Shown here piece by piece: positions 12,893 to 30,908 of a stretch of DNA of 64,000 nt; positions within the stretch are counted from its first letter, which is position 1, and each line of letters starts with the position of its first letter. Below the pieces are notes generated by a model. That model ran no database searches and was not told where the DNA came from. It was given only the letters and a program-made list of their open reading frames with translations. Source of the DNA: Gemmatimonadales bacterium (GTDB lineage: Bacteria; Gemmatimonadota; Gemmatimonadetes; Gemmatimonadales; GWC2-71-9); NCBI GenBank assembly GCA_040901965.1, contig JBBDYB010000004.1, positions 4,495 to 68,494 of the forward strand, in the 5' to 3' direction. A program made the position numbers and the translations under genes.

Positions 12893-14148
12893 AGGTGCAG
12901 GGCGTCGCCCGGCCCCCGGGCGACAAGAGTATTTCCCACCGCGTGCTCATGCTGGCTGCCCTCGCTCGAGGGGGGGGCACGAGCGAGCTGGCGGGCCTGC
13001 TCACGGGAGCCGACGTAAAGAGCACCGCCCGCGTCCTGCGCCAGCTCGGCGCCAAGATCTCGATCATTCGAGAAGGGTCCACGGTTTCAGTACACGCCTC
13101 TCGTTTGACGTCGTCCGTTTCACGCCTTCATTGTGGTAACTCTGGGACCACAGCGCGCCTCCTGTTAGGAGTACTCGCAGGTCAGCGATTCGCATCGACG
13201 TTGACAGGCGATGCGTCGCTGCGACGCCGGCCGATGCGCCGCGTGACGGAGCCCCTGCGAACGATGGGGGCGGAGATCGCCGAACGCGGCGACGGTCTGC
13301 CCCTCACCATTCGGGGCGGCAAGCTGCGCGGCCTGACGTACGCAAGCCCGGTCGCGAGCGCGCAGGTGAAGAGCGCGCTGCTGTTCGCGGGCCTCACGGG
13401 GAGCGTGGCGGTCACGATCCGCGAGCCGTACCGCTCGCGAGATCACACGGAACGGCTCTTTGCACACCTCGGTCTGGGCATTCACGAGAAGAGCGGCGCC
13501 ATCGTGTACGAGCCGTCACATTCCAACATTCCATCGTTCCAACTTGCCGTCCCGGGAGATGCCTCGAGCGCCGCGTTTCTCGTCGCCGCCGCCGTGCTGG
13601 CGGAGGGAGGAGAGCTCCTCATCGAGAATGTCGGCGTCAATCCTACACGCACAGGATTTCTGGTCGTGCTGGCGCGGATGGGCGCGCCCGTGGACCGCGT
13701 GAACCTGCGTGATGAAGGGGGCGAGCCGGTTGCCGATCTCGTGGTGCGTCCGGCAACGCTCACCGGGACGGAAGTGACCGCCACGGAGATTCCAACGCTC
13801 GTGGACGAGGTCCCCGTCCTGGCCGTGCTCGCCAGCCGGGCACAGGGAACGACGGTGTTTCGTGACGTGGGCGAGCTGCGCGTGAAGGAAAGCAACCGGC
13901 TGGAGCTGGTCGCCGCGAACCTGCGGGCGGTGGGCGTGCGCGCGGAAGCGCGCGGCAACGATCTGCACGTGGAGGGAAGGGACGCACCGCCCCGCGGAGT
14001 TGTCGATACCGCCGCCGACCACCGCCTCGCGATGGCATTCGCGGTGCTCGGGACCGTGCCGGGGTCCGACGTGCGCTTGTCGGAGCGGCGTTCGGTGGCC
14101 ATCAGCTATCCGAACTTCTTCAAAGACTTGAAACGGATCGGCGCATGA
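12889..14148 (+). CDS. aroA: 3-phosphoshikimate 1-carboxyvinyltransferase (EPSP synthase)
   Basis: GTGA overlap with the tyrA stop. N-terminus VKVQGVARPPGDKSISHRVLMLAAL carries the classic PGDKSISHR motif. The rest of track ORF 12031..14148 is an out-of-frame overlap with tyrA. Confidence 0.9.
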   Translation: MKVQGVARPPGDKSISHRVLMLAALARGGGTSELAGLLTGADVKSTARVLRQLGAKISIIREGSTVSVHASRLTSSVSRLHCGNSGTTARLLLGVLAGQRFASTLTGDASLRRRPMRRVTEPLRTMGAEIAERGDGLPLTIRGGKLRGLTYASPVASAQVKSALLFAGLTGSVAVTIREPYRSRDHTERLFAHLGLGIHEKSGAIVYEPSHSNIPSFQLAVPGDASSAAFLVAAAVLAEGGELLIENVGVNPTRTGFLVVLARMGAPVDRVNLRDEGGEPVADLVVRPATLTGTEVTATEIPTLVDEVPVLAVLASRAQGTTVFRDVGELRVKESNRLELVAANLRAVGVRAEARGNDLHVEGRDAPPRGVVDTAADHRLAMAFAVLGTVPGSDVRLSERRSVAISYPNFFKDLKRIGA

Positions 14149-14864
14149 TGCTGCGCGTGATCGCGATTGACGGTCCCGCGGCGTCCGGAAAGAGCTCCAC
14201 GGCCGGGCTCGTCGCGCAGCAGCTCAGCTGGGCGCACCTCGACTCCGGAGCGCTGTACCGGGCGCTCACCCTCGCCGCGCTCGACAACTTGGGAGAGCAG
14301 GGAGCAGGGAGCAGGGAGCGGGACGGCGGGGAGGCGTGGCCGGCGCAGCGGCTCGTGGCGCTCGCGGAGTCGCTGCCCGTGCGTCTGGTGTTGGTGGGCG
14401 ATGTGTTCCGGCCGGAGGTCGCGGGGGCGGATGTGCGGGCGGCCGTCCGCAATGAGCGGGTTACGCGCCATGTCTCCGCGCTCGCGGCCATTCCCGAGGT
14501 GCGGACCTGGGTAAACACCCAGCAACGGCTGGCCGTGCAGGGGTGTGGAGGACGTGGCGTGGTTGTCGATGGCCGTGATATCGGGACGGTGGTCTTTCCC
14601 GAGGCCCCGCTGAAGATCTTTCTCACCGCGACACCGGACGAACGGGCGCGGCGGCGGCTGTTTCAGCGCGGGCAGGCCGTGGACGTCGAGCAAGTGCGGC
14701 GCGAAAGCCGGGCCTTGGCGGCCCGGGACGCGGCCGATTCCAACCGGCTCATCGCCCCCTTGAAGGCAGCGCCGGACGCGGTGCTGCTCGATACCACGGC
14801 GCTGACGCTGGAGCAGCAGGTGACGCGCGTCGTCGAACTGGCGCGGGGGCTGTTCCCTGGGTAG
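14145..14864 (+). CDS. cmk: Cytidylate kinase
   Basis: P-loop IAIDGPAASGKSS, DSGALYR and DGRDIGTVVFP motifs. ATGA overlap with aroA. Contains the G-rich heptamer array at 14291..14334. Confidence 0.85.
   Translation: MMLRVIAIDGPAASGKSSTAGLVAQQLSWAHLDSGALYRALTLAALDNLGEQGAGSRERDGGEAWPAQRLVALAESLPVRLVLVGDVFRPEVAGADVRAAVRNERVTRHVSALAAIPEVRTWVNTQQRLAVQGCGGRGVVVDGRDIGTVVFPEAPLKIFLTATPDERARRRLFQRGQAVDVEQVRRESRALAARDAADSNRLIAPLKAAPDAVLLDTTALTLEQQVTRVVELARGLFPG
14291..14334 (+). repeat. (GGGAGCR)n G-rich heptamer array inside cmk
   Basis: GGGAGAGCA GGGAGCA GGGAGCA GGGAGCG GGACGGC GGGGAGG. Six or more G3+ tracts. Encodes LGEQGAGSRERDGGE. Confidence 0.85.
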
Positions 14865-16754: not shown

Positions 16755-18278
16755 ATGAGCATGCGCGAGAAGCTCGAGCTCCTGCAGCAGAAGCGCGCCG
16801 AGTCCGAGCAGGGCGGCGGCACCGATCGCATCGCCACCCAGCATCAAAAAGGAAAGATGACGGCGCGCGAGCGGCTCGACGTGCTGCTCGACCCCGGCTC
16901 CTTCGTCGAGCTCGACCGCTTCGTCACTCACCGCGCCACCGATTTTGGGCTCGCCGACCAGAAGGTCCTGGGCGACGGGGTGGTCACGGGGTGGGGCCGG
17001 GTCGAGGGGCGGCTGGTGTACGTCTTCTCGCAGGACTTCACCGTGTTCGGCGGGTCGCTCTCGGAGGCGCACGCGGAGAAGATCTGCAAGGTGATGGACC
17101 TCGCGATGCAAAACGGCGCCCCGGTCATCGGGCTCAACGATTCGGGCGGCGCGCGCATCCAGGAAGGGGTCGCGTCGCTCGGCGGGTACGCCGACATCTT
17201 CCTCCGCAACACGCTGGCGTCGGGCGTCGTGCCGCAGATCAGCGCCATCCTCGGTCCGTGCGCCGGCGGAGCCGTGTACAGTCCCGCCATCACCGACTTC
17301 ATCTTCATGGTGCGCGGCATCTCGTACATGTTCGTCACCGGCCCCAACGTCGTGAAGACGGTGACGCACGAAGAAGTGGACTTCGAAAAGCTGGGAGGCG
17401 CGGACGTCCACGGCGGCACGTCCGGCATCGCGCATTTCGTCCACGACTCGGAGCTCGAATCGCTCACGGCGATCCGGACGCTGCTCGCCTTCCTGCCGGG
17501 CAACAACCTCGATAGCCCACCCACGCGGGCCTCCGATGATCCCCCGGATCGCCGCGAGGAGGCTTTGCTCGACATCGTTCCGGACGAGCCGAGCAAACCG
17601 TACGACATGCGCGACGTGCTGCGGCACATCGTGGATGGCGGCGCGTTCCTCGAGGTGCAGCCCGAGTACGGCGGCAATCTCATCGTCGGCTTCGCCCGGC
17701 TGGCCGGCCGTCCGGTCGGCATCGTCGCCAATCAGCCCGCGACGCTGGCCGGGGTGCTCGACATCGCCGCCTCGCTCAAGGGTGCGCGCTTTATCCGCTT
17801 CTGCGACGCGTTCAACATCCCGCTCGTCACCTTCGAGGATGTGCCCGGCTTTCTGCCCGGCGTGGCGCAGGAGCACGGGGGGATCATCAAGCACGGCGCG
17901 AAGCTGCTATACGCGTTCTGCGAGGCCACAGTCCCGAAGCTCACCGTCATCACGCGCAAAGCCTACGGGGGCGCGTACGACGTCATGAGCTCCCGGCACA
18001 TCCGCGGCGACTACAATGTCGCCTGGCCGACGGCGGAGATCGCCGTGATGGGTCCCAAAGGCGCGGTCGAGATCCTCTATAAGGGAGAGGCAAGCGAGGA
18101 GCAGACCACCGAGTATCGCGAGAAGTTCGCGCACCCGTATCAGGCCGCGGCGCGCGGCTACGTGGACGACATCATTGACCCGCGCGACACCCGGCCGCGC
18201 CTGATCGCCGCGCTGATCACGCTGGAGACGAAGCGGAGCAAGAATCCCCCGAAAAAGCATGGCAATATCCCTCTCTAG
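16755..18278 (+). CDS. Acyl-CoA carboxylase carboxyltransferase (beta) subunit, PccB/methylmalonyl-CoA carboxyltransferase-like
   Basis: 507 aa. N-terminus ...[20 protein letters not shown] and motif [13 protein letters not shown] are typical of the family. Confidence 0.9.
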
Positions 18279-19185
18279 CGTCGTTCTGGCCGTCACGCTC
18301 GTTCAAGCACCGGCGCCGCCCCCCGCCGACTCGCTGCGCGCGGCGCTGTGGGCGCGGGTCGCGGCGGACTCGACCGACGGACCGGCGTGGCTGGAGCTGG
18401 GGCGCTTGTACCTGCAGCGGGGCGCGGAGTACCACGCGCACAAGACGCCGGCGCCCCGCGATACCACGTGGGCACAGGCAATCCTCGATACGGCGCAACA
18501 GGCGTTCGGCCGCGCCGCGCGCTGGAGCGCGGGGACCCGCACCGCCGATTCCGCCCGGGTGTTCCACGTGTACGCCGTGGGCGAGCGGGCGTATCTCGAT
18601 TGGGAATCCGGGGGCCCGGAGGCGGCGATCCTGGCCTGGCATACCCTGCCGGAAGGGCTGCGCCTGCCGCCGGTACTCGAGGAGCTGGGGGAAAACCTGC
18701 TGCGCGCCTGTCCCCACAACGGCATCCTGCTCACGGCGAACGAGCACGACACGCAAGCGGCGTGGTACCTGCGCTTCGCCCGCGGCCTCCGTGCGGACCT
18801 CGTGATCATGCCCTTCGACCGCTGGCGTGGCGATACCGTCATGCGCGGCCGGGTGATGCGCGACTTCAAGGCGCGCGATCGGGCGCTCCGGGCTTTGGGC
18901 CGGACGCGCGCCGTGTGCGCCAGCATGGGCTTCGAGCGCCCACCGGAGGAGCGCTCGCTGCGGTGGGCGAAACGCCCGCTCGTGTGGGTGACGGGGAAAG
19001 AGACCAGAGCTGATCGCGTGCCCGCCCACGACTTTGTGTTTGCGGCGCTGCGGCTGGCGGTGGATCAGCATGAGACATGGAGCCCACCCGCCGTGGCGCT
19101 CTACCGCCGCGCCGTGAGCATGGTGCCGGCGCTCTGCAAGCCGTTCGACACGTTTGGGCTGAAATCGGAGGTTGGGTGCCGGTGA
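18259..19185 (+). CDS. Hypothetical protein with signal-peptide-like N-terminus
   Basis: 308 aa ORF with good GC3 and N-terminus [20 protein letters not shown]. No family recognised. Overlaps the previous gene by 20 nt. Confidence 0.5.
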
Positions 19186-19211
19186 TGGCAGATGGCTGAC
19201 GGCTGATGGCT
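19184..19211 (+). repeat. (GATGGCT)4 heptamer array spanning the biotin carboxylase start codon
   Basis: GATGGCA GATGGCT GACGGCT GATGGCT. Contains three ATGs, at 19185, 19192 and 19206. Confidence 0.85.
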
Positions 19212-20732
19212 GCGATTCATCGCGTCCTGGTCGCCAACCGCGGCGAGATCGCCGTCCGGGTGATCCGCGCCTGCCACGAGGAAGGTCTCGCGGCCGTCGC
19301 CGTCTATTCCGAACCCGATCGGCTGGCCCCGCACGTACGCGATGCCGACGCGGCGGTGTCGCTCGGCCCGGCGCCCGCGACCGAGTCCTACCTCGACATC
19401 CAGAAACTCATCGCAGCCGCGCGCGCGAGCGGCTGCCAGGCCGTGCACCCCGGCTATGGATTCCTGTCCGAGCGGGCGGCGTTTGCCCAGGCGTGCGCCG
19501 ACGCGAACTTGGTGTTCGTCGGCCCTCCGGCCGCGGCGATCCGCGCCATGGGCGACAAGACCGAAGCACGCCGCCGCATGCAGGCGGCGGGCGTCCCCGT
19601 CGTGCCCGGCACCGCGGCGCCGCTGCGTGATGCGGCCGAGGCGCGGCGCGAGGCGAAGCGCCTCGGCTATCCCGTGTTGCTCAAGGCCGTCGCCGGGGGG
19701 GGCGGGAAGGGCATGCGGCTCGTGGCGGCGGAAGCGGACATCGAGAGCGCCTTTCAAGCCGCGCGGCGCGAAGCGCAGAAGGCGTTCGGCGACGGCAGCG
19801 TGTACGCGGAGAAGTACCTCGAGCGGCCGCGCCACATCGAGATCCAGGTGCTCGCCGACCGGCACGGCCGCGCCGTGGCGCTGGGCGAGCGCGAGTGCAG
19901 CATTCAGCGCCGCCACCAGAAGCTGATCGAGGAGGCGCCATCGCCCGCCGTGTCGCCGCCGCTGCGCCGCCGGCTTTCGGAGGCGGCGGCGGCGGCCGCG
20001 GGTGCGGTCGGGTACGTCAGCGCCGGAACGATCGAGTTCCTGCTGACGCCCGCCGGGGAGTTCTACTTCCTCGAGATGAATACGCGCATTCAGGTCGAGC
20101 ATCCCGTGACGGAGCTCGTCTACGGCGTGGACCTGGTGCGCGAGCAGCTGCGCATTGCCGCCGGCCAGCCGATGCGCATCCACTCCGGGTTGCTGCACCC
20201 GCGCGGGCACGCCATCGAGTGCCGGATCACCGCCGAGGATCCGTTCAACGACTTCCTGCCGGCGACCGGCGTGCTGGAATACCTGCGCGTGCCCAGCGGG
20301 CCCGGCATTCGCTGGGACGCCGGCGTCGAGGCGGGGAACGAGGTGACGCTGTTCTACGATCCGTTGCTCGCCAAGCTCATCGCCTGGGGCGAAACGCGGG
20401 AGGTCGCCATTCAGCGCATGCGCCGCGCGCTGGGCGAGCTCGTGATCGTGGGGCTTCCCACGAGCCAGCCGTTTCATTTGCGCGTGATGGACGATGCCGA
20501 GTTCCAAAATGGTGAGCTCGACATCACCTACCTGGAGCGCGCCGGCCAGCGGTTGCTCGCCGCCGTCCCGCGCCCGGGCGTCGAACGTGCGCTCGCCGTC
20601 GCCGCGGCCATTGTCGCCGACGAGCACCGGAGCGTCCCTGCCAGCGCGGTTCCGTCCGACCGTCCGACAGTCCAACAGTCCGCCTGGGTGGTGGAGGGGC
20701 GGCGGTTGGGAATGCGGGACGGCCTCGAGTGA
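19206..20732 (+). CDS. accC: Biotin carboxylase subunit of acetyl/propionyl-CoA carboxylase
   Basis: RVLVANRGEIAVRVIRAC, glycine loop AGGGGKGMR, and EMNTRIQVEHPVTE. Confidence 0.9.
   Translation: MAAIHRVLVANRGEIAVRVIRACHEEGLAAVAVYSEPDRLAPHVRDADAAVSLGPAPATESYLDIQKLIAAARASGCQAVHPGYGFLSERAAFAQACADANLVFVGPPAAAIRAMGDKTEARRRMQAAGVPVVPGTAAPLRDAAEARREAKRLGYPVLLKAVAGGGGKGMRLVAAEADIESAFQAARREAQKAFGDGSVYAEKYLERPRHIEIQVLADRHGRAVALGERECSIQRRHQKLIEEAPSPAVSPPLRRRLSEAAAAAAGAVGYVSAGTIEFLLTPAGEFYFLEMNTRIQVEHPVTELVYGVDLVREQLRIAAGQPMRIHSGLLHPRGHAIECRITAEDPFNDFLPATGVLEYLRVPSGPGIRWDAGVEAGNEVTLFYDPLLAKLIAWGETREVAIQRMRRALGELVIVGLPTSQPFHLRVMDDAEFQNGELDITYLERAGQRLLAAVPRPGVERALAVAAAIVADEHRSVPASAVPSDRPTVQQSAWVVEGRRLGMRDGLE
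20653..20684 (+). repeat. Octamer tandem array in the 3' tail of the biotin carboxylase gene
   Basis: CGTCCGAC CGTCCGAC AGTCCAAC AGTCCGCC. Encodes ...PSDRPTVQQSA... Confidence 0.7.
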
Positions 20733-23414: not shown

Positions 23415-23477
23415 TCGGTCGTCGGTCGTCGGTCGCGGGTTGCCGATAACCGAGAACCGACAACCGACAACCGACGA
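23415..23477 (+). repeat. Nine in-phase heptamers forming a long imperfect hairpin immediately after the rpsI stop
   Basis: TCGGTCG x3, CGGGTTG, CCGATAA, CCGAGAA, CCGACAA x2, CCGACGA. The left arm is complementary (with G-U pairs and mismatches) to the right arm. An A-run follows. Confidence 0.8.
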
Positions 23478-27175: not shown

Positions 27176-28026
27176 TGGCCTCCTCCCCCCCCAACAACCT
27201 GGCGCAGCGCATCGTCGTTGCGGCCATCGCCATTCCCCTCGTCATCGGCTTGATCTGGCTGGGGGGCTGGCCGCTCGCCGCTACGCTCGCGGTGCTGGGC
27301 GTGTTGGGCACGCGCGAGATCTACGATCTGGCGCGCCGTCAGGGAATCGAGCCGCTCGACGAAACGGGCTGGCTGGCCGCGGCCGCGATTCCGCTGCTCG
27401 CGTACTGGGCCAAGGGGCCGGCGTTGTACATGGGGGCGCTGTGGCTCATGGCGGTGCTCGTCGTGGCGATGATCCGGCGCGGGCCCGCGGGCCGGCCGCT
27501 CACGAGCGTGTCCGTGACGGTGTTCGGGTCCCTGTATGCGTCCGGCCTGCTCGCGTTTCTCATCGCCATTCGCCACGGCGGCAACGCCGAAAATCGGCCC
27601 GCGGCCTACGCGTCGCTGACCCTGTTTCCGCTCGTCATCACGTGGATCTGTGACACCGCCGCGATGGCGGCGGGGTCCGCGATCGGCGGGCCCAAGCTCG
27701 CGCCGGTGCTGTCGCCCAAGAAGACTCATGCCGGCGCCATCGGCGGGACACTCGGCGGGGTGGTCGCGGCGGTCGTCCTGGGCAAGCTGGTCCTCAACCG
27801 TCAGGGGTGGAACTTCAGCGTCGCCCAGCTGCTGCTGTTTGGGCTGGCCGTGTCGGTGGTGGGGCAGGTGGGAGACGTCGCCGAGTCGCTCTTCAAGCGG
27901 GAAGCGGGCGTGAAGGACTCGTCGTCGCTCATCCCCGGGCATGGCGGGGTGCTGGATCGGCTCGATTCGCTGTACTTCGTGATTCCGGCGGCGGCGGGAT
28001 TGTACCGTATGTTCGGTGTGATATGA
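27175..28026 (+). CDS. cdsA: Phosphatidate cytidylyltransferase
   Basis: TAATG overlap with uppS. Multi-TM protein with signature SLFKREAGVKDSSSLIPGHGGVLDRLDS. Confidence 0.85.
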   Translation: MASSPPNNLAQRIVVAAIAIPLVIGLIWLGGWPLAATLAVLGVLGTREIYDLARRQGIEPLDETGWLAAAAIPLLAYWAKGPALYMGALWLMAVLVVAMIRRGPAGRPLTSVSVTVFGSLYASGLLAFLIAIRHGGNAENRPAAYASLTLFPLVITWICDTAAMAAGSAIGGPKLAPVLSPKKTHAGAIGGTLGGVVAAVVLGKLVLNRQGWNFSVAQLLLFGLAVSVVGQVGDVAESLFKREAGVKDSSSLIPGHGGVLDRLDSLYFVIPAAAGLYRMFGVI

Positions 28027-29171
28027 ACGCCTCCGCGGTCCCCGTCGGCGTCGCCATCCTCGGATCCACCGGGTCCATCGGCCGGTCCACGCTGCAAGTG
28101 CTCGCGCGCCAGCGGGAGCGGTTCCGCGTCGTGGCGCTCACCGCGCACTCCAATGGCGAGCTGCTCGCCAGCCAGGCAAAGGAGTGGAAGCCGGACTACG
28201 TCGGGCTGGTGAATGGAGGAAGCGGGGAGCCGGGAGCAGGGAGCGGAAAAGGCGCTGCGTGTCTTGTCGAGGCCGCGACGCATCCCGACGTGCGGATCGT
28301 CGTGAACGGGATCGTCGGGGCCGCGGGACTCGAGGCGACGCTGGCGGCGCTGCGGGCGGGCAAGCGCGTCGCGCTCGCGAACAAGGAAACGCTGGTCATG
28401 GCGGGCGAGCTGGTCACGCGAGCCGCGCGCGAGGGGGGCGGGGAGATCGTCCCCGTGGACTCCGAGCACAGCGCCGTGCTCCAGTGCGTGACCGGCCGGC
28501 GTCCCGCGGAGCTGGCGCGCCTGATCCTGACGGCCTCCGGCGGTCCGTTCCGTACCTGGGAGCCGGATCGGATCGCGCGGGCCACGGTCGCCGAGGCGCT
28601 GCGGCACCCGACATGGTCCATGGGGAAGAAGATCACTGTGGACTCGGCGACACTTGTGAACAAGGCCCTCGAGGTCATTGAGGCCCATTTCCTGTTCGGC
28701 GTGGGGTACGATCAGGTGGACGTCGTCGTCCACCCGCAGTCCGTGATTCACGCCTTCGCCGAGTTCGTGGACGGTTCGGTGCTGGCGCAGGTGGGATTCC
28801 CGACCATGGAGCTGCCGATTCTCTACGCGCTAACCCATCCGGACCGAGTTCCCGATTCGGGCGTTCGCCGGTTCGACCCCATCGCGGCTGGAGCTCTCAC
28901 GTTTGAGGCGGTGCAGCCGGGGCGGTTCCCGGCGTATGCCGTCGGTCGCGCAGCGGCGCGCGCGGGGGGCACCGCGCCCGCCATGTTCAACGCCGCCAAC
29001 GAGGTCGCCGTGCAGCTGTTCCTCGAGGAGCGGATCCCCTTCGGCCGCATCGCGGAGGTGCTCCAAGAAGTCGTAGACAAGGGACGTTCCGGAGACGCGA
29101 GCTCGCTCGCCGGGGTGCTCGCCGCCGACGCGGAAGCGCGCCGGCTGGCGCGGGAGGCCGCATGCTCCTGA
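28023..29171 (+). CDS. dxr: 1-deoxy-D-xylulose 5-phosphate reductoisomerase
   Basis: ATGA overlap with cdsA. ILGSTGSIGRSTL and AGKRVALANKETLV motifs. Contains the heptamer array at 28215..28246. Confidence 0.9.
   Translation: MNASAVPVGVAILGSTGSIGRSTLQVLARQRERFRVVALTAHSNGELLASQAKEWKPDYVGLVNGGSGEPGAGSGKGAACLVEAATHPDVRIVVNGIVGAAGLEATLAALRAGKRVALANKETLVMAGELVTRAAREGGGEIVPVDSEHSAVLQCVTGRRPAELARLILTASGGPFRTWEPDRIARATVAEALRHPTWSMGKKITVDSATLVNKALEVIEAHFLFGVGYDQVDVVVHPQSVIHAFAEFVDGSVLAQVGFPTMELPILYALTHPDRVPDSGVRRFDPIAAGALTFEAVQPGRFPAYAVGRAAARAGGTAPAMFNAANEVAVQLFLEERIPFGRIAEVLQEVVDKGRSGDASSLAGVLAADAEARRLAREAACS
28215..28246 (+). repeat. (NGGGAGC)3 G-rich heptamer array inside dxr
   Basis: GGAGGAAGC GGGGAGC CGGGAGC AGGGAGC GG. 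Encodes GGSGEPGAGSG. Confidence 0.8.
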
Positions 29172-30532
29172 CGATTGCGTCCCTTATCGTCGTCCTCGGC
29201 GTCCTGATCTTCGTCCACGAGCTGGGGCATTTCCTCGTCGCCAAGGCCGTCGGCATTCAGGTGCTGCGCTTCTCCCTCGGTTTCGGCCGGCCGGTGATCG
29301 AATGGCGCCGCGGCGAGACCGAGTACTGGATCTCCTGGATCCCCCTCGGCGGCTACGTCAAAATGGCGGGACTCGAAGAGGAAGGCATGGTCGGTGAGCT
29401 GGAAGGCGGCAAGGCGGGCGTGGCGATCGACCCCGAGCGCACGTTCGACCGCAAACCGCTGTGGGCGCGGATGGCGGTGATCCTCGCCGGCGTGACGATG
29501 AACGTCCTGTTCGCGTTCGTGGTGTACGTCGGCGTAGGAACGTTCATGGGCGTTGCCGAGCGCGCCACCACGCAGGTCGATACCGTGCACGCGACGCGGT
29601 TGCCTCCCGGAGCTGAGGCGCTTGCCGCGTTGCAGCATGGGGATCGCATCATTCGGATCGACGGCGATACGGTGGCGACGTGGGAGGACGTCCTACGGCG
29701 GATAGTCGAGGCGGACACGGCAATCCACATCGAGGTCGCCGGCCGGCCACAACCGATCACCCTGACGCTCCCCGCTAGCGATACGGGCCGCATGCGTGTG
29801 GTGCGCGCCCTGGAGCCACTGTTCCCGGCGCGTATCGGCCTTGTCTATCCGGGGGAGCCCGCGGCCCGGGCGGGGCTGCGCTCGGGTGATGTCGTCATCA
29901 AGGCGGACGGCGACACGGTGCGGTCGTGGCACGATATGCTGGTCAAGATCCGGAGTAATGCGGCCCGGCCGGTGGATCTGACGCTACGTCGTAGGCGACC
30001 GGGCAGGGGCGACTCGCTCGTGCAGATCACGGTCACGCCCAAGACGCTGCCGGACCCCGACAGCGCGTGGTCGGGCCTCAAGACGATTGGGCTGATCGGG
30101 GTCGAAGCAGACCCTCCGCAGATCAAGAAGGCGCTGCCGTTCACGACGGCGGTGACCGTCGGCGCGCGGCAGACGGTGCTCCAGACCAAGGTCATCCTGG
30201 TCTCGCTGAAACGCCTTGTTTTCGGTCAAGCCTCGATGCGGGACTTGGGCGGGCCCATCCTGATCGCTCAGGTCTCCGGGCAAGCCGCACGGCTCGGCCT
30301 CGACCGGTTCCTGATGTTCATGGCGTTCTTTTCGGTGAGCCTCGCGGTCCTGAACCTGCTGCCCATTCCGGTGCTCGACGGCGGCCACGCGATGTTCCTC
30401 ATCGTCGAGGCGATCCGCGGCAAGCCGCTTTCGGCACAGTTGCGGATGCGGCTCACGCAGATCGGCATGCTGATCATCCTCGGCATCATGGTGCTCGCGA
30501 TCTCGAACGATGTCCTCCGCAACATCCGTTAA
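29162..30532 (+). CDS. rseP: RIP site-2 metalloprotease RseP
   Basis: HELGHFLVAK (HExxH), PDZ-like middle region and NLLPIPVLDGGH motif. Confidence 0.85.
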   Translation: MLLTIASLIVVLGVLIFVHELGHFLVAKAVGIQVLRFSLGFGRPVIEWRRGETEYWISWIPLGGYVKMAGLEEEGMVGELEGGKAGVAIDPERTFDRKPLWARMAVILAGVTMNVLFAFVVYVGVGTFMGVAERATTQVDTVHATRLPPGAEALAALQHGDRIIRIDGDTVATWEDVLRRIVEADTAIHIEVAGRPQPITLTLPASDTGRMRVVRALEPLFPARIGLVYPGEPAARAGLRSGDVVIKADGDTVRSWHDMLVKIRSNAARPVDLTLRRRRPGRGDSLVQITVTPKTLPDPDSAWSGLKTIGLIGVEADPPQIKKALPFTTAVTVGARQTVLQTKVILVSLKRLVFGQASMRDLGGPILIAQVSGQAARLGLDRFLMFMAFFSVSLAVLNLLPIPVLDGGHAMFLIVEAIRGKPLSAQLRMRLTQIGMLIILGIMVLAISNDVLRNIR

Positions 30533-30908
30533 TGACGCCCTGGCGGGCTACGCCGCGGGTCGTGTGACCGCGGAGCAGCTCGTGGGTGTCGTAGCGGCGG
30601 CGTACTACGGGGAGCAGGGAGCGGGGAGCAGGGAGCAGTTAGGGCCGCTTATCGAGATTATCGAACGAGCACATCCTGGAATAATCGAGCTGTTGGCGAA
30701 CGACGCGAAGCCGGGGTTTGCGGTTCGACTGGCTGAGCGACCGTTTCCGAAGCGGTACGAGAGTGAGTTGCGCCAGGCAGTCGCCGCTTTGGCTACTGCT
30801 CCCCGCTCCCCGCTCCCTGCTCCCGATTCTGCTCCCCGCTCCCCGCTCCCTGCTCCCAGTCTGTTCTCCCGAATCATCCGGGCGATCCGCAAAGTTTTCA
30901 GCGCATAA
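30510..30908 (+). CDS. Hypothetical protein carrying forward and inverted G-rich heptamer arrays
   Basis: 132 aa ORF overlapping rseP by 23 nt and the convergent kinase by 11 nt. The sequence is protein-like outside the repeats (ALAGYAAGRVTAEQLVGVVAAAYY, LGPLIEIIERAHPGIIELL). GC3 is lower than in neighbouring genes. Confidence 0.45.
   Translation: MSSATSVNDALAGYAAGRVTAEQLVGVVAAAYYGEQGAGSREQLGPLIEIIERAHPGIIELLANDAKPGFAVRLAERPFPKRYESELRQAVAALATAPRSPLPAPDSAPRSPLPAPSLFSRIIRAIRKVFSA
30609..30638 (+). repeat. (GGGGAGC/AGGGAGC)x4 heptamer array, forward orientation
   Basis: GGGGAGCAGGGAGCGGGGAGCAGGGAGCAG. Encodes GEQGAGSREQ. Confidence 0.85.
30796..30857 (-). repeat. Two identical 29-nt reverse-complement copies of the G-rich array, period 33 nt
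   Basis: CTGCTCCCCGCTCCCCGCTCCCTGCTCCC occurs at 30796-30824 and 30829-30857. Encodes APRSPLPAPDS and APRSPLPAPSL. Confidence 0.85.

What the first reader, a model, noticed from the sequence alone, without database searches (positions are those of the whole stretch)
14291..14334. Dispersed G-rich heptamer family (GGGAGCR)n embedded in-frame in housekeeping genes; G-quadruplex consensus and a shared peptide
Near-identical arrays of the heptamer GGGAGC(A/G) occur at 14291-14334 (cmk), 28215-28246 (dxr) and 30609-30638, and as reverse complements at 30796-30824 and 30829-30857. That is five copies in 64 kb, all within annotated coding sequence. Because 7 is not a multiple of 3, the arrays are kept as units that preserve the reading frame. 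Cmk and the unrelated ORF at 30510 both acquire the identical nonapeptide GEQGAGSRE. Compared with E. coli Cmk as I recall it, the segment after ...LALAAL is about 12 residues longer here, which is consistent with an insertion. Each array has four or more G3+ tracts with 3-4 nt loops. This fits the canonical G3+N1-7 x4 quadruplex motif on the coding strand (template strand for the inverted copies). The arrays also contain repeated SD-like GGGAG. This looks like a mobile or slippage-generated micro-repeat family tolerated in protein loops, and resembles the heptameric STRR repeats of heterocystous cyanobacteria.
Basis: partly seen in the sequence, partly recalled or inferred. Interest (0 to 1): 0.6.

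Follow-up and report, generated by a model that had tools for sequence, protein, structure and literature searches.

The report
In-frame G-rich heptamer repeat arrays
A soil bacterium (order Gemmatimonadales) carries about 85 copies of a 29-base element made of four GGGAGCR repeats, most of them translated in frame inside flexible loops of ordinary housekeeping enzymes and many arranged as hairpin-forming pairs; similar heptamer repeats of unknown function are already known from Xanthomonas, Geobacter and cyanobacteria.

Summary
All five arrays are at the stated coordinates (15 motif hits against 0.47 expected), and all lie in genuine genes: cmk, dxr and a conserved small ORF.

Genome-wide there are 85 arrays. 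Of these, 56 have exactly four units, giving a 29-nt element GGGAGCA-GGGAGCN-GGGAGCR-GGGAGCA-G. About 75% sit inside genes. There are 25 close pairs, and 20 of them are convergent (G-arm then C-arm).

All six frames are stop-free. The array-coded part of Cmk is the only low-confidence loop in its AlphaFold model.

Orthologue comparison changes the "insertion" reading. Arrays mostly overwrite segments of equal length. The "empty" alleles in relatives are often heptamer arrays built from other words.

In one ALDH linker, all 22 congeneric genomes carry an inverted repeat, in most of them two arms of heptamer units. At least 12 different words occur. Arm complementarity is 0.87 within species and 0.58 between species.

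The family is confined to one Gemmatimonadales family and is patchy within it. It is not linked to RAYT transposases.

The closest published relatives are Xanthomonas GGGAATC and Nostoc repeats (four units, convergent pairs), the Geobacter (GGGACCG)4 elements, and STRR.

I read it as a structure-prone repeat family kept alike by concerted evolution and tolerated in frame. The mechanism is inferred, not shown.

The parts
14293..14321 (+). Single (GGGAGCR)4+G array, G-rich strand = coding strand, inside cmk. It encodes GEQGAGSRE in a surface loop.
   Evidence: There is no complementary partner within 400 nt. The array corresponds to the low-pLDDT residues 51-70 of the Cmk model.
14145..14864 (+). 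cmk (cytidylate kinase), host gene
   Evidence: PF02224 at 198 bits. Alignment with 28 orthologues.
28218..28245 (+). Single array in dxr: GCGGGGAGCC GGGAGCA GGGAGCG, three perfect units and only three G3 tracts. It encodes GSGEPGAGSG.
   Evidence: The array is shared with G013 and G009. G002 has a degenerate (GGGAAGG)-type array at the same place.
28023..29171 (+). dxr (DXP reductoisomerase), host gene. The likely start is the ATG at 28023; the ORF is open from 27807.
   Evidence: PF02670, PF08436 and PF13288. The Pfam match begins at residue 82 of the long ORF.
30510..30908 (+). Conserved small ORF (132 aa, no Pfam family) directly after rseP. It hosts one G-arm and two C-arms.
   Evidence: Orthologues are L093:2256-2648 (G013, 130 aa) and L094:2519-2884 (G009, 121 aa). 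The core EIIERAHPGIIEL...RLAERPFPKRYE is conserved with synonymous changes.
30610..30638 (+). G-arm: (GGGAGCR)4+G, the 5' arm of a long-range inverted repeat.
   Evidence: The predicted fold pairs it with 30830-30857. G013 has (GGAGACG)n here, with the same length.
30797..30824 (-). C-arm copy 1 (reverse complement of the array); encodes APRSPLPAP.
30830..30857 (-). C-arm copy 2, a 33-nt tandem duplicate of copy 1. G009 has only one C-arm.

Best explanation
The five arrays belong to a genome-wide family of about 85 copies of a defined 29-nt element, (GGGAGCR)4+G, in an uncultured Gemmatimonadales bacterium. It is one 'word' of a broader class of heptamer-array elements in this lineage.

Shown:
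- The element occurs singly, mostly with the G-rich strand as coding strand, or as convergent pairs (G-arm, 5-214 nt of host sequence, C-arm).
- It sits mainly inside genes, in loops and inter-domain linkers.
- It is stop-free in all six frames.
- The sites ('slots') persist across species, while the 7-nt word is replaced. Both arms of a pair change together and the length is kept.

Inferred mechanism:
- The arrays are structure-prone DNA: a G-quadruplex for single arrays, a hairpin or cruciform for pairs.
- Concerted evolution keeps them alike. This would act as short-patch conversion or template switching between the arms of a pair and between dispersed arrays, possibly started by breaks or stalls at the structures.
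- As a result the most abundant word in a genome takes over slots.
- Selection only demands that the reading frame and a flexible peptide survive.
- The peptides (GAGSREQ or APRSPLP cycles) are passengers, not the selected feature.
For: - Census: 85 arrays, 56 with exactly 4 units. First and last units end in A (57/76 each), the trailing G is present in 74/76, and the flanks show no consensus.
- Period-7 excess: 71 arrays of at least 4 units, against 17 at period 5, 24 at period 8 and 3 at period 10.
- Pairs: 25 neighbour pairs within 400 nt against about 1 expected; 20 are '+-' and 1 is '-+'.
- Location: 64/85 arrays lie inside called genes, which cover 80% of the genome. Single arrays in genes are G-sense 21 against C-sense 7.
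- Hosts: PheS, E2, Kgd, RsmB, LeuRS, AlaRS, RecN, PurL, DnaX, HslU, CysRS, LigD, FtsK, RarA and others.
- The Cmk array is the only low-confidence loop of the model.
- Overwriting at constant length, and other-word arrays at the same sites: Cmk, small ORF, PurL, RecN, KgdA and ALDH.
- ALDH linker: all 22 congeners keep an inverted repeat, with at least 12 different words. Arm complementarity is 0.87 within species and 0.58 between species.
- Many slots in one genome share one word, while the same slot differs between genomes. This requires exchange between loci.
- Distribution is patchy and lineage-restricted.
- Published parallels have four units and convergent pairs.
Against: - No conversion or template-switch event was seen directly.
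- The two arms of GGGAGCR pairs are not more alike at the variable 7th positions than random arrays (7/36). This argues against recent copying from one arm to the other.
- Conversion between dispersed arrays of only 28 nt, with unrelated flanks, is at the lower limit for homologous recombination.
- The strict '+-' handedness, also seen for pairs that bracket 80-214 nt of conserved host coding sequence, is not explained by this model.
- G4 and hairpin formation are predictions only. G4Hunter-positive stretches are common in this 68% GC genome: 33 clusters in the window.
- My gene calls are crude.
Confidence: 0.55

Rival explanations
1. Selected structural elements. The hairpins and G-tract arrays are kept by natural selection because they act in the mRNA or the DNA. 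Possible roles include ribosome pausing at domain boundaries, mRNA stabilisation or processing, transcription or replication punctuation, or binding sites for a protein that reads 7-nt periodic DNA. This is not exclusive of the main explanation.
For: - All 22 congeners keep an inverted repeat at the ALDH linker although the sequence has turned over completely.
- At the Cmk slot, G-tract periodicity on the coding strand is kept under at least 7 words.
- Pairs lie at domain boundaries (E2 PSBD, Kgd, DnaX, LigD, ALDH).
- The copy number of four matches the G4 minimum (PMC4692102).
Against: - Many congeners have a non-periodic allele at the Cmk slot, and two lack the 21 nt altogether, so the element is dispensable there.
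- Presence or absence is incongruent between close relatives.
- There is no excess of G.U over A.C oppositions on the sense strand (8 against 16), so there is no signature of a sense-RNA structure.
- The conserved AGCAG tail lies outside any G4.
- Arms mismatch at most of the 7th positions.
- Ongoing conversion would also preserve complementarity without any function.
Confidence: 0.25
2. Mobile element. The 29-nt array, or the arm-loop-arm unit, is a MITE/REPIN-like element moved in trans by a transposase, such as a RAYT/IS200-type Y1 enzyme that recognises hairpins. It would insert in frame as Rickettsia palindromic elements do.
For: - The element has defined length and ends, with many identical copies at unrelated sites.
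- Distribution among species is patchy.
- Short-spacer pairs of 60-90 nt look like MITEs.
- Two Y1_Tnp genes are present in the genome.
Against: - There are no target-site duplications and no flank consensus.
- Spacers are unrelated in sequence and, where long, are conserved host coding sequence (E2 PSBD, AlaRS core, small-ORF core).
- Filled sites compared with empty sites differ by 0 to +15 nt, never by +28/29 or by the whole pair.
- Both RAYT genes are flanked by ordinary REP palindromes, with no heptamer array within 3-5 kb.
- Array-rich G013, G004 and G038 show no Y1_Tnp.
Confidence: 0.1
3. Ordinary microsatellites. The arrays arise and change in place by replication slippage alone, seeded from G-rich Gly/Glu/Arg codons, with no exchange between loci.
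For: - There is word homogeneity within an array and word drift by single steps between species, for example GGAATGC in G013 against GGATTGC in G002.
- A 33-nt tandem duplication of the C-arm occurs in the small ORF.
- The Cmk loop has a 21-nt (3-unit) indel allele.
Against: - 85 unrelated sites share one word.
- The copy-number distribution peaks sharply at 4 instead of decaying.
- Terminal units are purer than internal ones.
- Inside genes a single-unit slip shifts the frame, so slippage is largely forbidden there.
- No length variants were found in 8 independent contigs.
- The convergent pairing is unexplained.
Confidence: 0.07
4. Protein-level selection or compositional chance. The repeats would merely reflect selection for Gly/Ser/Ala-rich linker peptides, or high GC content.
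For: The arrays lie in linkers that are often low-complexity (E2, Kgd).
Against: - The period is 7 nt, not 3.
- Both strands are used, giving unrelated peptides.
- The same DNA occurs between genes.
- Peptides at one slot are unrelated across species, while the DNA architecture is kept.
- Shuffles and the reversed-pattern control give about 0 hits.
Confidence: 0.02

Closest known systems
G-rich heptamer repeats of Xanthomonas (GGGAATC)n and Nostoc (GGGGAYT)n (Rehm et al. 2015, PLoS One, PMC4692102)
   Same: - The unit is 7 nt with a G3+ tract.
- There are hundreds of dispersed copies.
[quoted passage not shown]
- About 40% occur as two arrays in convergent orientation on opposite strands.
- Associated genes fall in all functional classes.
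- Function is unknown.
   Different: - The word is different and the phylum is different.
- The Xanthomonas copies are 89-93% intergenic and under-represented on the coding strand. Here about 75% lie inside genes, in frame, and single copies prefer the coding strand.
- Copy number ranges up to 26 there, and only 2-6 here.
- Conservation of slots with word replacement and co-varying arms was not described there.
Geobacter metallireducens elements of four tandem heptanucleotides (GGGACCG; Gmet_H4##; Aklujkar et al. 2009, PMC2700814)
   Same: [quoted passage not shown]
   Different: - It was only listed as a putative regulatory element.
- No analysis was made of reading frame, pairing, orthologous sites or word turnover.
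- The word and the phylum are different.
STRR (short tandemly repeated repetitive) heptamers of heterocystous cyanobacteria (Mazel et al. 1990; from my own knowledge)
   Same: Tandem heptamers, several different words in one genome, dispersed, function unknown. G000 also carries several words.
   Different: - STRR words (CCCCAGT, TTGGTCA, CAACAGT) are unrelated to these.
- STRR arrays are mostly intergenic.
- No in-frame coding habit has been described for them.
Rickettsia palindromic elements (RPE; Ogata et al. 2000; from my own knowledge)
   Same: A palindromic repeat family that lives in frame inside housekeeping protein genes, is translated, and is placed in surface loops.
   Different: - RPEs are 100-150-bp elements with a conserved sequence throughout, and they are inserted as one piece.
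- Here only the 28-29-nt arms are repeated, and the spacer is host sequence.
- Here many copies are single.
- Here filled and empty alleles have similar length.
REP/REPIN elements with RAYT transposases
   Same: Dispersed short repeats that often occur as inverted doublets forming hairpins, with sequences specific to a genome.
   Different: - The arrays are not individually palindromic.
- They do not flank the two RAYT genes of this genome, which have their own REP palindromes.
- They occur in genomes without a detectable RAYT.
- They are mostly intragenic.

Membership tests
G-rich heptamer SSR elements (Xanthomonas/Nostoc/Geobacter type) | Tandem 7-nt unit containing a G3+ tract | tested here: met
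   Unit GGGAGCR; positions 1-6 are nearly invariant in 76 arrays.
G-rich heptamer SSR elements (Xanthomonas/Nostoc/Geobacter type) | Modal copy number of four units | tested here: met
   56 of 85 arrays have exactly 4 units.
G-rich heptamer SSR elements (Xanthomonas/Nostoc/Geobacter type) | Tens to hundreds of copies dispersed over the genome, far above chance | tested here: met
   85 arrays on 17 of 22 contigs. The reversed-pattern control gives 0. Shuffles give 0.47 against 15 observed.
G-rich heptamer SSR elements (Xanthomonas/Nostoc/Geobacter type) | Frequent convergent pairs (one array on each strand, G-arm first) | tested here: met
   20 of 25 neighbour pairs are '+-'.
G-rich heptamer SSR elements (Xanthomonas/Nostoc/Geobacter type) | Strong bias to intergenic regions (Xanthomonas 89-93%) | tested here: not met
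   64/85 arrays lie inside called genes, which cover 80% of the genome. Geobacter elements are also intragenic, so this feature does not hold for the whole class.
G-rich heptamer SSR elements (Xanthomonas/Nostoc/Geobacter type) | Forms a G-quadruplex in vitro (CD, K+ dependence) | not testable with these tools
   Prediction only. G4Hunter scores are 1.4-2.0. With the G4 model the ViennaRNA energy is -8.4 kcal/mol, against -2.4 without it. For pairs the hairpin wins.
STRR of cyanobacteria | Heptamer tandem arrays of several words within one genome | tested here: met
   GGGAGCR plus GTGCGCS, GGGATGC, AATGATC, GGGGCTW and others.
STRR of cyanobacteria | STRR1-3 consensus words; cyanobacterial host | tested here: not met
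   The words are different. The host is Gemmatimonadales.
Rickettsia palindromic elements / in-frame MITEs | Translated in frame inside conserved protein genes | tested here: met
   Cmk, Dxr, E2, Kgd, LeuRS, AlaRS, HslU and others keep open frames through the arrays.
Rickettsia palindromic elements / in-frame MITEs | A whole element (arms plus conserved interior) inserted as one piece, so filled sites exceed empty sites by the element length | tested here: not met
   Spacers are unrelated or are host sequence. Length differences are 0 to +15 nt.
REP/REPIN-RAYT systems | The repeat family flanks its cognate RAYT (Y1 transposase) gene and co-occurs with it | tested here: not met
   Two Y1_Tnp genes are flanked by other palindromes, with no array within 3-5 kb. 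G013, G004 and G038 have arrays but no Y1_Tnp hit. Those MAGs are 88-98% complete.
Phase-variable contingency SSRs | Unit number varies between strains and switches the frame of surface or antigen genes | tested here: not met
   The hosts are housekeeping genes. The Cmk product is identical on 7 contigs, with one 1-residue variant of the same length. This is a limited test; read-level data were not available.

The most novel reading that the evidence does not exclude
The arrays are written by a dedicated, still unidentified, template-directed system. It repeatedly overwrites conserved 'slots', including slots inside essential genes, with the current heptamer word of the genome. That would be a natural short-patch genome-rewriting mechanism, for example oligonucleotide- or RNA-templated repair at G4 or hairpin lesions. 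It would explain four things: the fixed 29-nt length with well-defined ends, the replacements that keep length constant, the genome-specific dominant word, and the strict G-arm-then-C-arm handedness shared with Xanthomonas.
Probability: 0.1. Interest if true: 0.9.

Novelty: new variant of a known kind. Interest (0 to 1): 0.6.

Why it matters
Bacterial heptamer repeats have been known for over 30 years without a known function or mechanism of spread. Examples are STRR from 1990, the Geobacter elements from 2009 and the Xanthomonas repeats from 2015.

In this lineage the repeats sit inside conserved housekeeping genes. Orthologous sites can therefore be aligned exactly across dozens of species. 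That exposes three things intergenic copies cannot show:
- the sites persist;
- the 7-nt word is replaced at constant length;
- the two arms of a pair change together.

This gives a direct comparative handle on how such repeats are maintained.

It also shows that essential enzymes can carry long perfect hairpins or G4 motifs in their coding sequence. This matters for gene prediction (the small ORF here was missed by gene callers), for protein-linker evolution, and for ideas about mRNA or DNA structure within genes.

Tried and rejected
1. Hidden partner arms for single arrays. The best complement downstream was 12.3/21, the same as the upstream control. cmk and dxr are therefore true singles.
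2. A genome-wide (GGGAGAC)n family in G013. Only the one site was found. That search did reveal (GGGANAC)n in G007/G016/G018 and (GGGCAGA)n in G036.
3. RAYT association. Rejected.
4. Sense-strand RNA signature from G.U against A.C oppositions. None found.
5. Known RNA families. There were no Rfam matches on any array. The only hit was a sub-threshold Actino-pnp hit on another heptamer hairpin.
6. Literal search of the literature for GGGAGCAGGGAGC. It returned only unrelated human or plant primers.
The protein-cluster look-up showed no length variants.
8. DNA uptake sequence or Chi-like signal. I considered these because of the same-length overwriting and the inverted pairs. I did not pursue them, because about 85 copies per genome, the tandem 7-nt structure and several co-existing words do not fit a single uptake motif.
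9. My own gene caller is crude (80% coverage) and missed the small ORF. The coding fractions are therefore approximate and probably underestimates.
Full report

Yes. The window reads GAGAGCA GGGAGCA GGGAGCA GGGAGCG G at 14293-14321. It reads GCGGGGAGCC GGGAGCA GGGAGCG at 28218-28245. It reads (GGGAGCR)4 G at 30610-30638, with two reverse-complement copies at 30797-30824 and 30830-30857.

A two-unit pattern with one mismatch allowed hits 15 times, against 0.47 +/- 0.72 in dinucleotide-preserving shuffles. Tandem Repeats Finder reports all five arrays with period 7.

The hosts are real genes. Cmk matches PF02224 at 198 bits. Dxr matches PF02670, PF08436 and PF13288. The upstream neighbour of the third ORF is an RseP-type M50 protease.

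ORF 30510-30908 has no Pfam family and my own gene caller missed it. It nevertheless has syntenic orthologues right after rseP in two congeners. Its core (EIIERAHPGIIEL...RLAERPFPKRYE) is conserved while third codon positions differ. It is therefore coding.

- The dxr array has only three G3 tracts.
- The Cmk segment is 5 residues longer than in congeners.
- The 30610 array and the 30797/30830 arrays are the two arms of one long inverted repeat. Its predicted fold is dominated by a stem of about 28 bp.

**2. The genome-wide family**

The window is C4:4495-68494 of a 2.69-Mb, 68% GC assembly in 22 contigs. Record titles of close relatives name it as an uncultured soil Gemmatimonadales bacterium.

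A mismatch-tolerant census finds 85 arrays:

| Units | Arrays |
|---|---|
| 2 | 9 |
| 3 | 14 |
| 4 | 56 |
| 5 | 4 |
| 6 | 2 |

The element has a defined form: GGGAGCA GGGAGCN GGGAGCR GGGAGCA G.
- The first and last units end in A in 57 of 76 arrays each.
- A G follows the last unit in 74 of 76.
- The 7th positions of the two inner units are variable.
- The flanks show no consensus and no target duplication.

Ends that are better conserved than the interior, and a copy number peaking sharply at four, are not what plain slippage gives.

Period 7 is over-represented in general. There are 71 arrays of at least four units, against 17 at period 5, 24 at period 8 and 3 at period 10. The genome holds further words as well: GTGCGCS, GGGATGC, AATGATC, GGGGCTW and others. 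Several of these also form inverted pairs.

**3. Pairs and handedness**

There are 25 neighbouring array pairs within 400 nt, where about one is expected at random. By orientation, 20 are G-arm then C-arm ('+-'), 3 are '--', 1 is '++' and 1 is '-+'. Spacers range from 5 to 214 nt and are unrelated to each other.

Where the spacer is long, it is conserved host coding sequence:
- the peripheral-subunit-binding domain of E2;
- the EIWNLVFMQY core of AlaRS;
- the core of the small ORF in the window.

The two arms are not more alike at their variable 7th positions than random arrays (7 of 36). About 30 arrays of at least three units, including those in cmk and dxr, have no hidden partner. Their best complement downstream is 12.3/21, the same as the upstream control.

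I could not explain the '+-' handedness. Xanthomonas shows the same "convergent" arrangement.

**4. Relation to genes**

Of the 85 arrays, 64 lie inside genes called by a crude codon-usage caller that covers 80% of the genome. So there is no depletion in coding DNA.

Hosts are ordinary housekeeping genes: PheS, LipB, E2, Kgd, RsmB, LeuRS, AlaRS, CysRS, RecN, PurL, DnaX, HslU, LigD, FtsK, RarA, CCA-adding enzyme, MazG, Dtd, Cmk and Dxr.

The unit is stop-free in all six frames. Because 3 x 7 nt = 7 codons, any frame of the G strand gives the cycle GAGSREQ, and any frame of the C strand gives APRSPLP or APCSLLP. This is why Cmk and the small ORF share GEQGAGSRE.

Single arrays in genes prefer the coding strand, 21 against 7.

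An AlphaFold model of Cmk was built on 29 orthologues (mean pLDDT 91.3). Its only low-confidence stretch is residues 51-70, which is the array-coded loop.

**5. Comparison of orthologous sites**

This is the part that changes the interpretation.

*Cmk loop, about 45 genomes.*
- Many genomes have a non-periodic allele, GEGGRRKGEEW.
- Others have, in the same 75-nt interval, four-unit arrays of at least seven different words: GGGAGCA, GGGAGCC, GGGGACG/GGGGAAG, GGGGAGS, GGGGCMT and others.
- Two genomes have an allele that is 21 nt shorter.
- G000 has 15 nt extra.
- G016, which is not the closest relative, carries (GGGAGCA)4 with no change of length.

*The small ORF.* G013 has (GGAGACG)n exactly where G000 has (GGGAGCR)4, with the same length. 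G009 has the G-arm and one C-arm. G000 has duplicated the C-arm by 33 nt.

*Dxr.* G013 and G009 share the array. G002 has a degenerate GGGAAGG-type array there.

*Twelve further sites in G013, G009 and G002.*
- Presence is incongruent between relatives. PurL has it in G000 and G009. RecN has it in G000 and G013. CysRS has it in G000 and G002.
- Length differences are 0 to a few codons.
- "Empty" alleles are often arrays of other words: PurL (ACGCACG)3 in G002 and (CCGCACG)2 in G013; RecN (CCACGCA)3 in G009.
- KgdA in G002 holds a convergent pair, (CGTGCGC)n...(GCGCACG)n.

*The inter-domain linker of a fused aldehyde dehydrogenase.*
- All 22 same-genus genomes that could be read have an inverted repeat there, with arms of 11-36 nt. 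In most of them both arms are runs of heptamer units.
- At least 12 different words are used: GGGAGCR, CGGAGCA, GGGAGTT, GGGATGC, GGGAGAW, GGGAAGS, GGGAMAC, GGGACTC, GGGCCTG, GGGACGG, CGRAATG, CGGAACG, TTGCGGA and others.
- The best complement of a left arm is 0.87 within its own species and 0.58 in other species.
- The encoded peptides are unrelated.

So the site and the architecture are conserved, the word is not, and the arms change together. Non-Watson-Crick oppositions show no excess of G.T over A.C on the sense strand (8 against 16). That gives no sign of a structure specific to the sense RNA.

**6. Distribution**

(GGGAGCR)3 is very patchy. It gives 0 to 54 hits among 25 genomes of the genus, and 56 hits in one genome of another family.

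In a sample of 401 genomes of the phylum it occurs in 42. Nearly all are in the window's own family, none is outside the order, and the reversed-pattern control is about zero.

Other lineages have other words. G036 has (GGGCAGA)n, and G007, G016 and G018 have (GGGANAC)n.

**7. What it is not**

- *Not a REPIN/RAYT system.* The two Y1_Tnp genes of G000 are flanked by ordinary REP palindromes, with no heptamer array within 3-5 kb. Array-rich G013, G004 and G038 show no Y1_Tnp.
- *Not an RPE-like insertion of a whole palindromic element.* The spacers are host DNA, and filled and empty alleles have similar length.
- *Not phase variation.* The hosts are essential genes. The Cmk product is identical on seven contigs, plus one single-substitution variant of the same length.
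- *Not a known RNA family*.
- *Not selection for the peptide, and not composition*.

**8. How it most likely works**

Shown:
- a defined 29-nt element;
- a dispersed, genome-specific dominant word;
- conserved slots;
- same-length replacement;
- co-variation of arms;
- tolerance in loops.

Inferred:
- The arrays are structure-prone, forming a G4 when single and a hairpin or cruciform when paired (one search is a prediction only).
- They are kept alike by concerted evolution. By this I mean short-patch conversion or template switching between arms and between dispersed arrays, perhaps triggered by stalls or breaks at the structures.
- The abundant word therefore spreads to further slots.
- Selection filters only for an intact frame and a harmless flexible peptide.

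I put about 0.55 on this reading. Selection for a structural function (about 0.25) is compatible with it and cannot be excluded.

The weak points are these:
- There is no direct evidence for conversion.
- 28 nt is short for homologous exchange.
- The arms differ at their variable positions.
- The handedness is unexplained.

**9. Comparison with what is known**

The closest published cases are these.
- *Xanthomonas GGGAATC and Nostoc GGGGAYT repeats* (PMC4692102). They share four units, G4 formation shown by CD, and about 40% convergent pairs. They differ in being 89-93% intergenic.
- *STRR heptamers*, which share the multi-word habit.
- *RPEs*, which share the in-frame life style but not the anatomy.

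I therefore file it as a new variant of a known kind.

Earlier notes of this scan describe the same habit in other Gemmatimonadales genomes. I reached the main points before reading them, and I tested the co-variation claim myself.

**10. Limits**

- Gene calls are my own and approximate.
- The relatives are MAGs of 59-100% completeness, so absences of genes are soft.

Noticed in passing
window 23415-23475: A second heptamer hairpin with a different word: (TCGGTCG)3, a 7-nt spacer, then (CCGACAA)4.7. It lies between two + strand genes. It gives a sub-threshold Rfam hit to Actino-pnp (RF01688, 29.9 bits against a gathering score of 47.7) on the - strand, probably only because it is a hairpin.
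   Followed up: partly
window 19183-19212: (TGATGGC)4.3 heptamer array at the junction of ORFs 18259-19185 and 19206-20732. This is another word of the same class.
   Followed up: no
window 30510-30908: The 132-aa ORF after rseP is conserved in the genus but has no Pfam family. Its exact product is not in the 15-billion-protein collection, so gene callers apparently missed it or started it elsewhere. Its start overlaps the rseP stop.
   Followed up: partly
genome C5:79283-80524 and C2:31853-33091 (outside the window): Two RAYT-like Y1 transposase genes. Each is flanked by its own classical REP palindromes: GTGTCCTAAAGGAC/CGCCCTTAAGGGCG-type repeats and ACCCCGGGC...GCCCGGGGT hairpins. So the genome has at least two REP/RAYT systems besides the heptamer arrays. 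Y1_Tnp is found in 17 of 25 genomes of this genus but in only 3 of 16 genomes of other genera.
   Followed up: partly
genome C9:104801-111758 (outside the window): Seven arrays within 7 kb, in three neighbouring genes: RarA/MgsA, a CCA-adding/poly(A) polymerase family enzyme, and AlaRS. In AlaRS a pair brackets the highly conserved EIWNLVFMQY motif.
   Followed up: partly
genome C2:42801-42850 (outside the window): (CACGGAG)6, followed 8 nt later by three more units in direct orientation. This is a rare '++' arrangement of another word.
   Followed up: no
G036 (relative), genome-wide: The reversed control pattern (GGGCAGAGGGCAGAGGG) hit 20 times in G036 only. That genus therefore has its own dominant word, GGGCAGA.
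   Followed up: no
L123 (G025, another family of the order), ALDH linker: A genome of family f2 has a 38-nt heptamer-armed inverted repeat, (GAGTYGT)n...(ACRACTC)n, in the same ALDH linker. Four other out-of-genus genomes have none.
   Followed up: no
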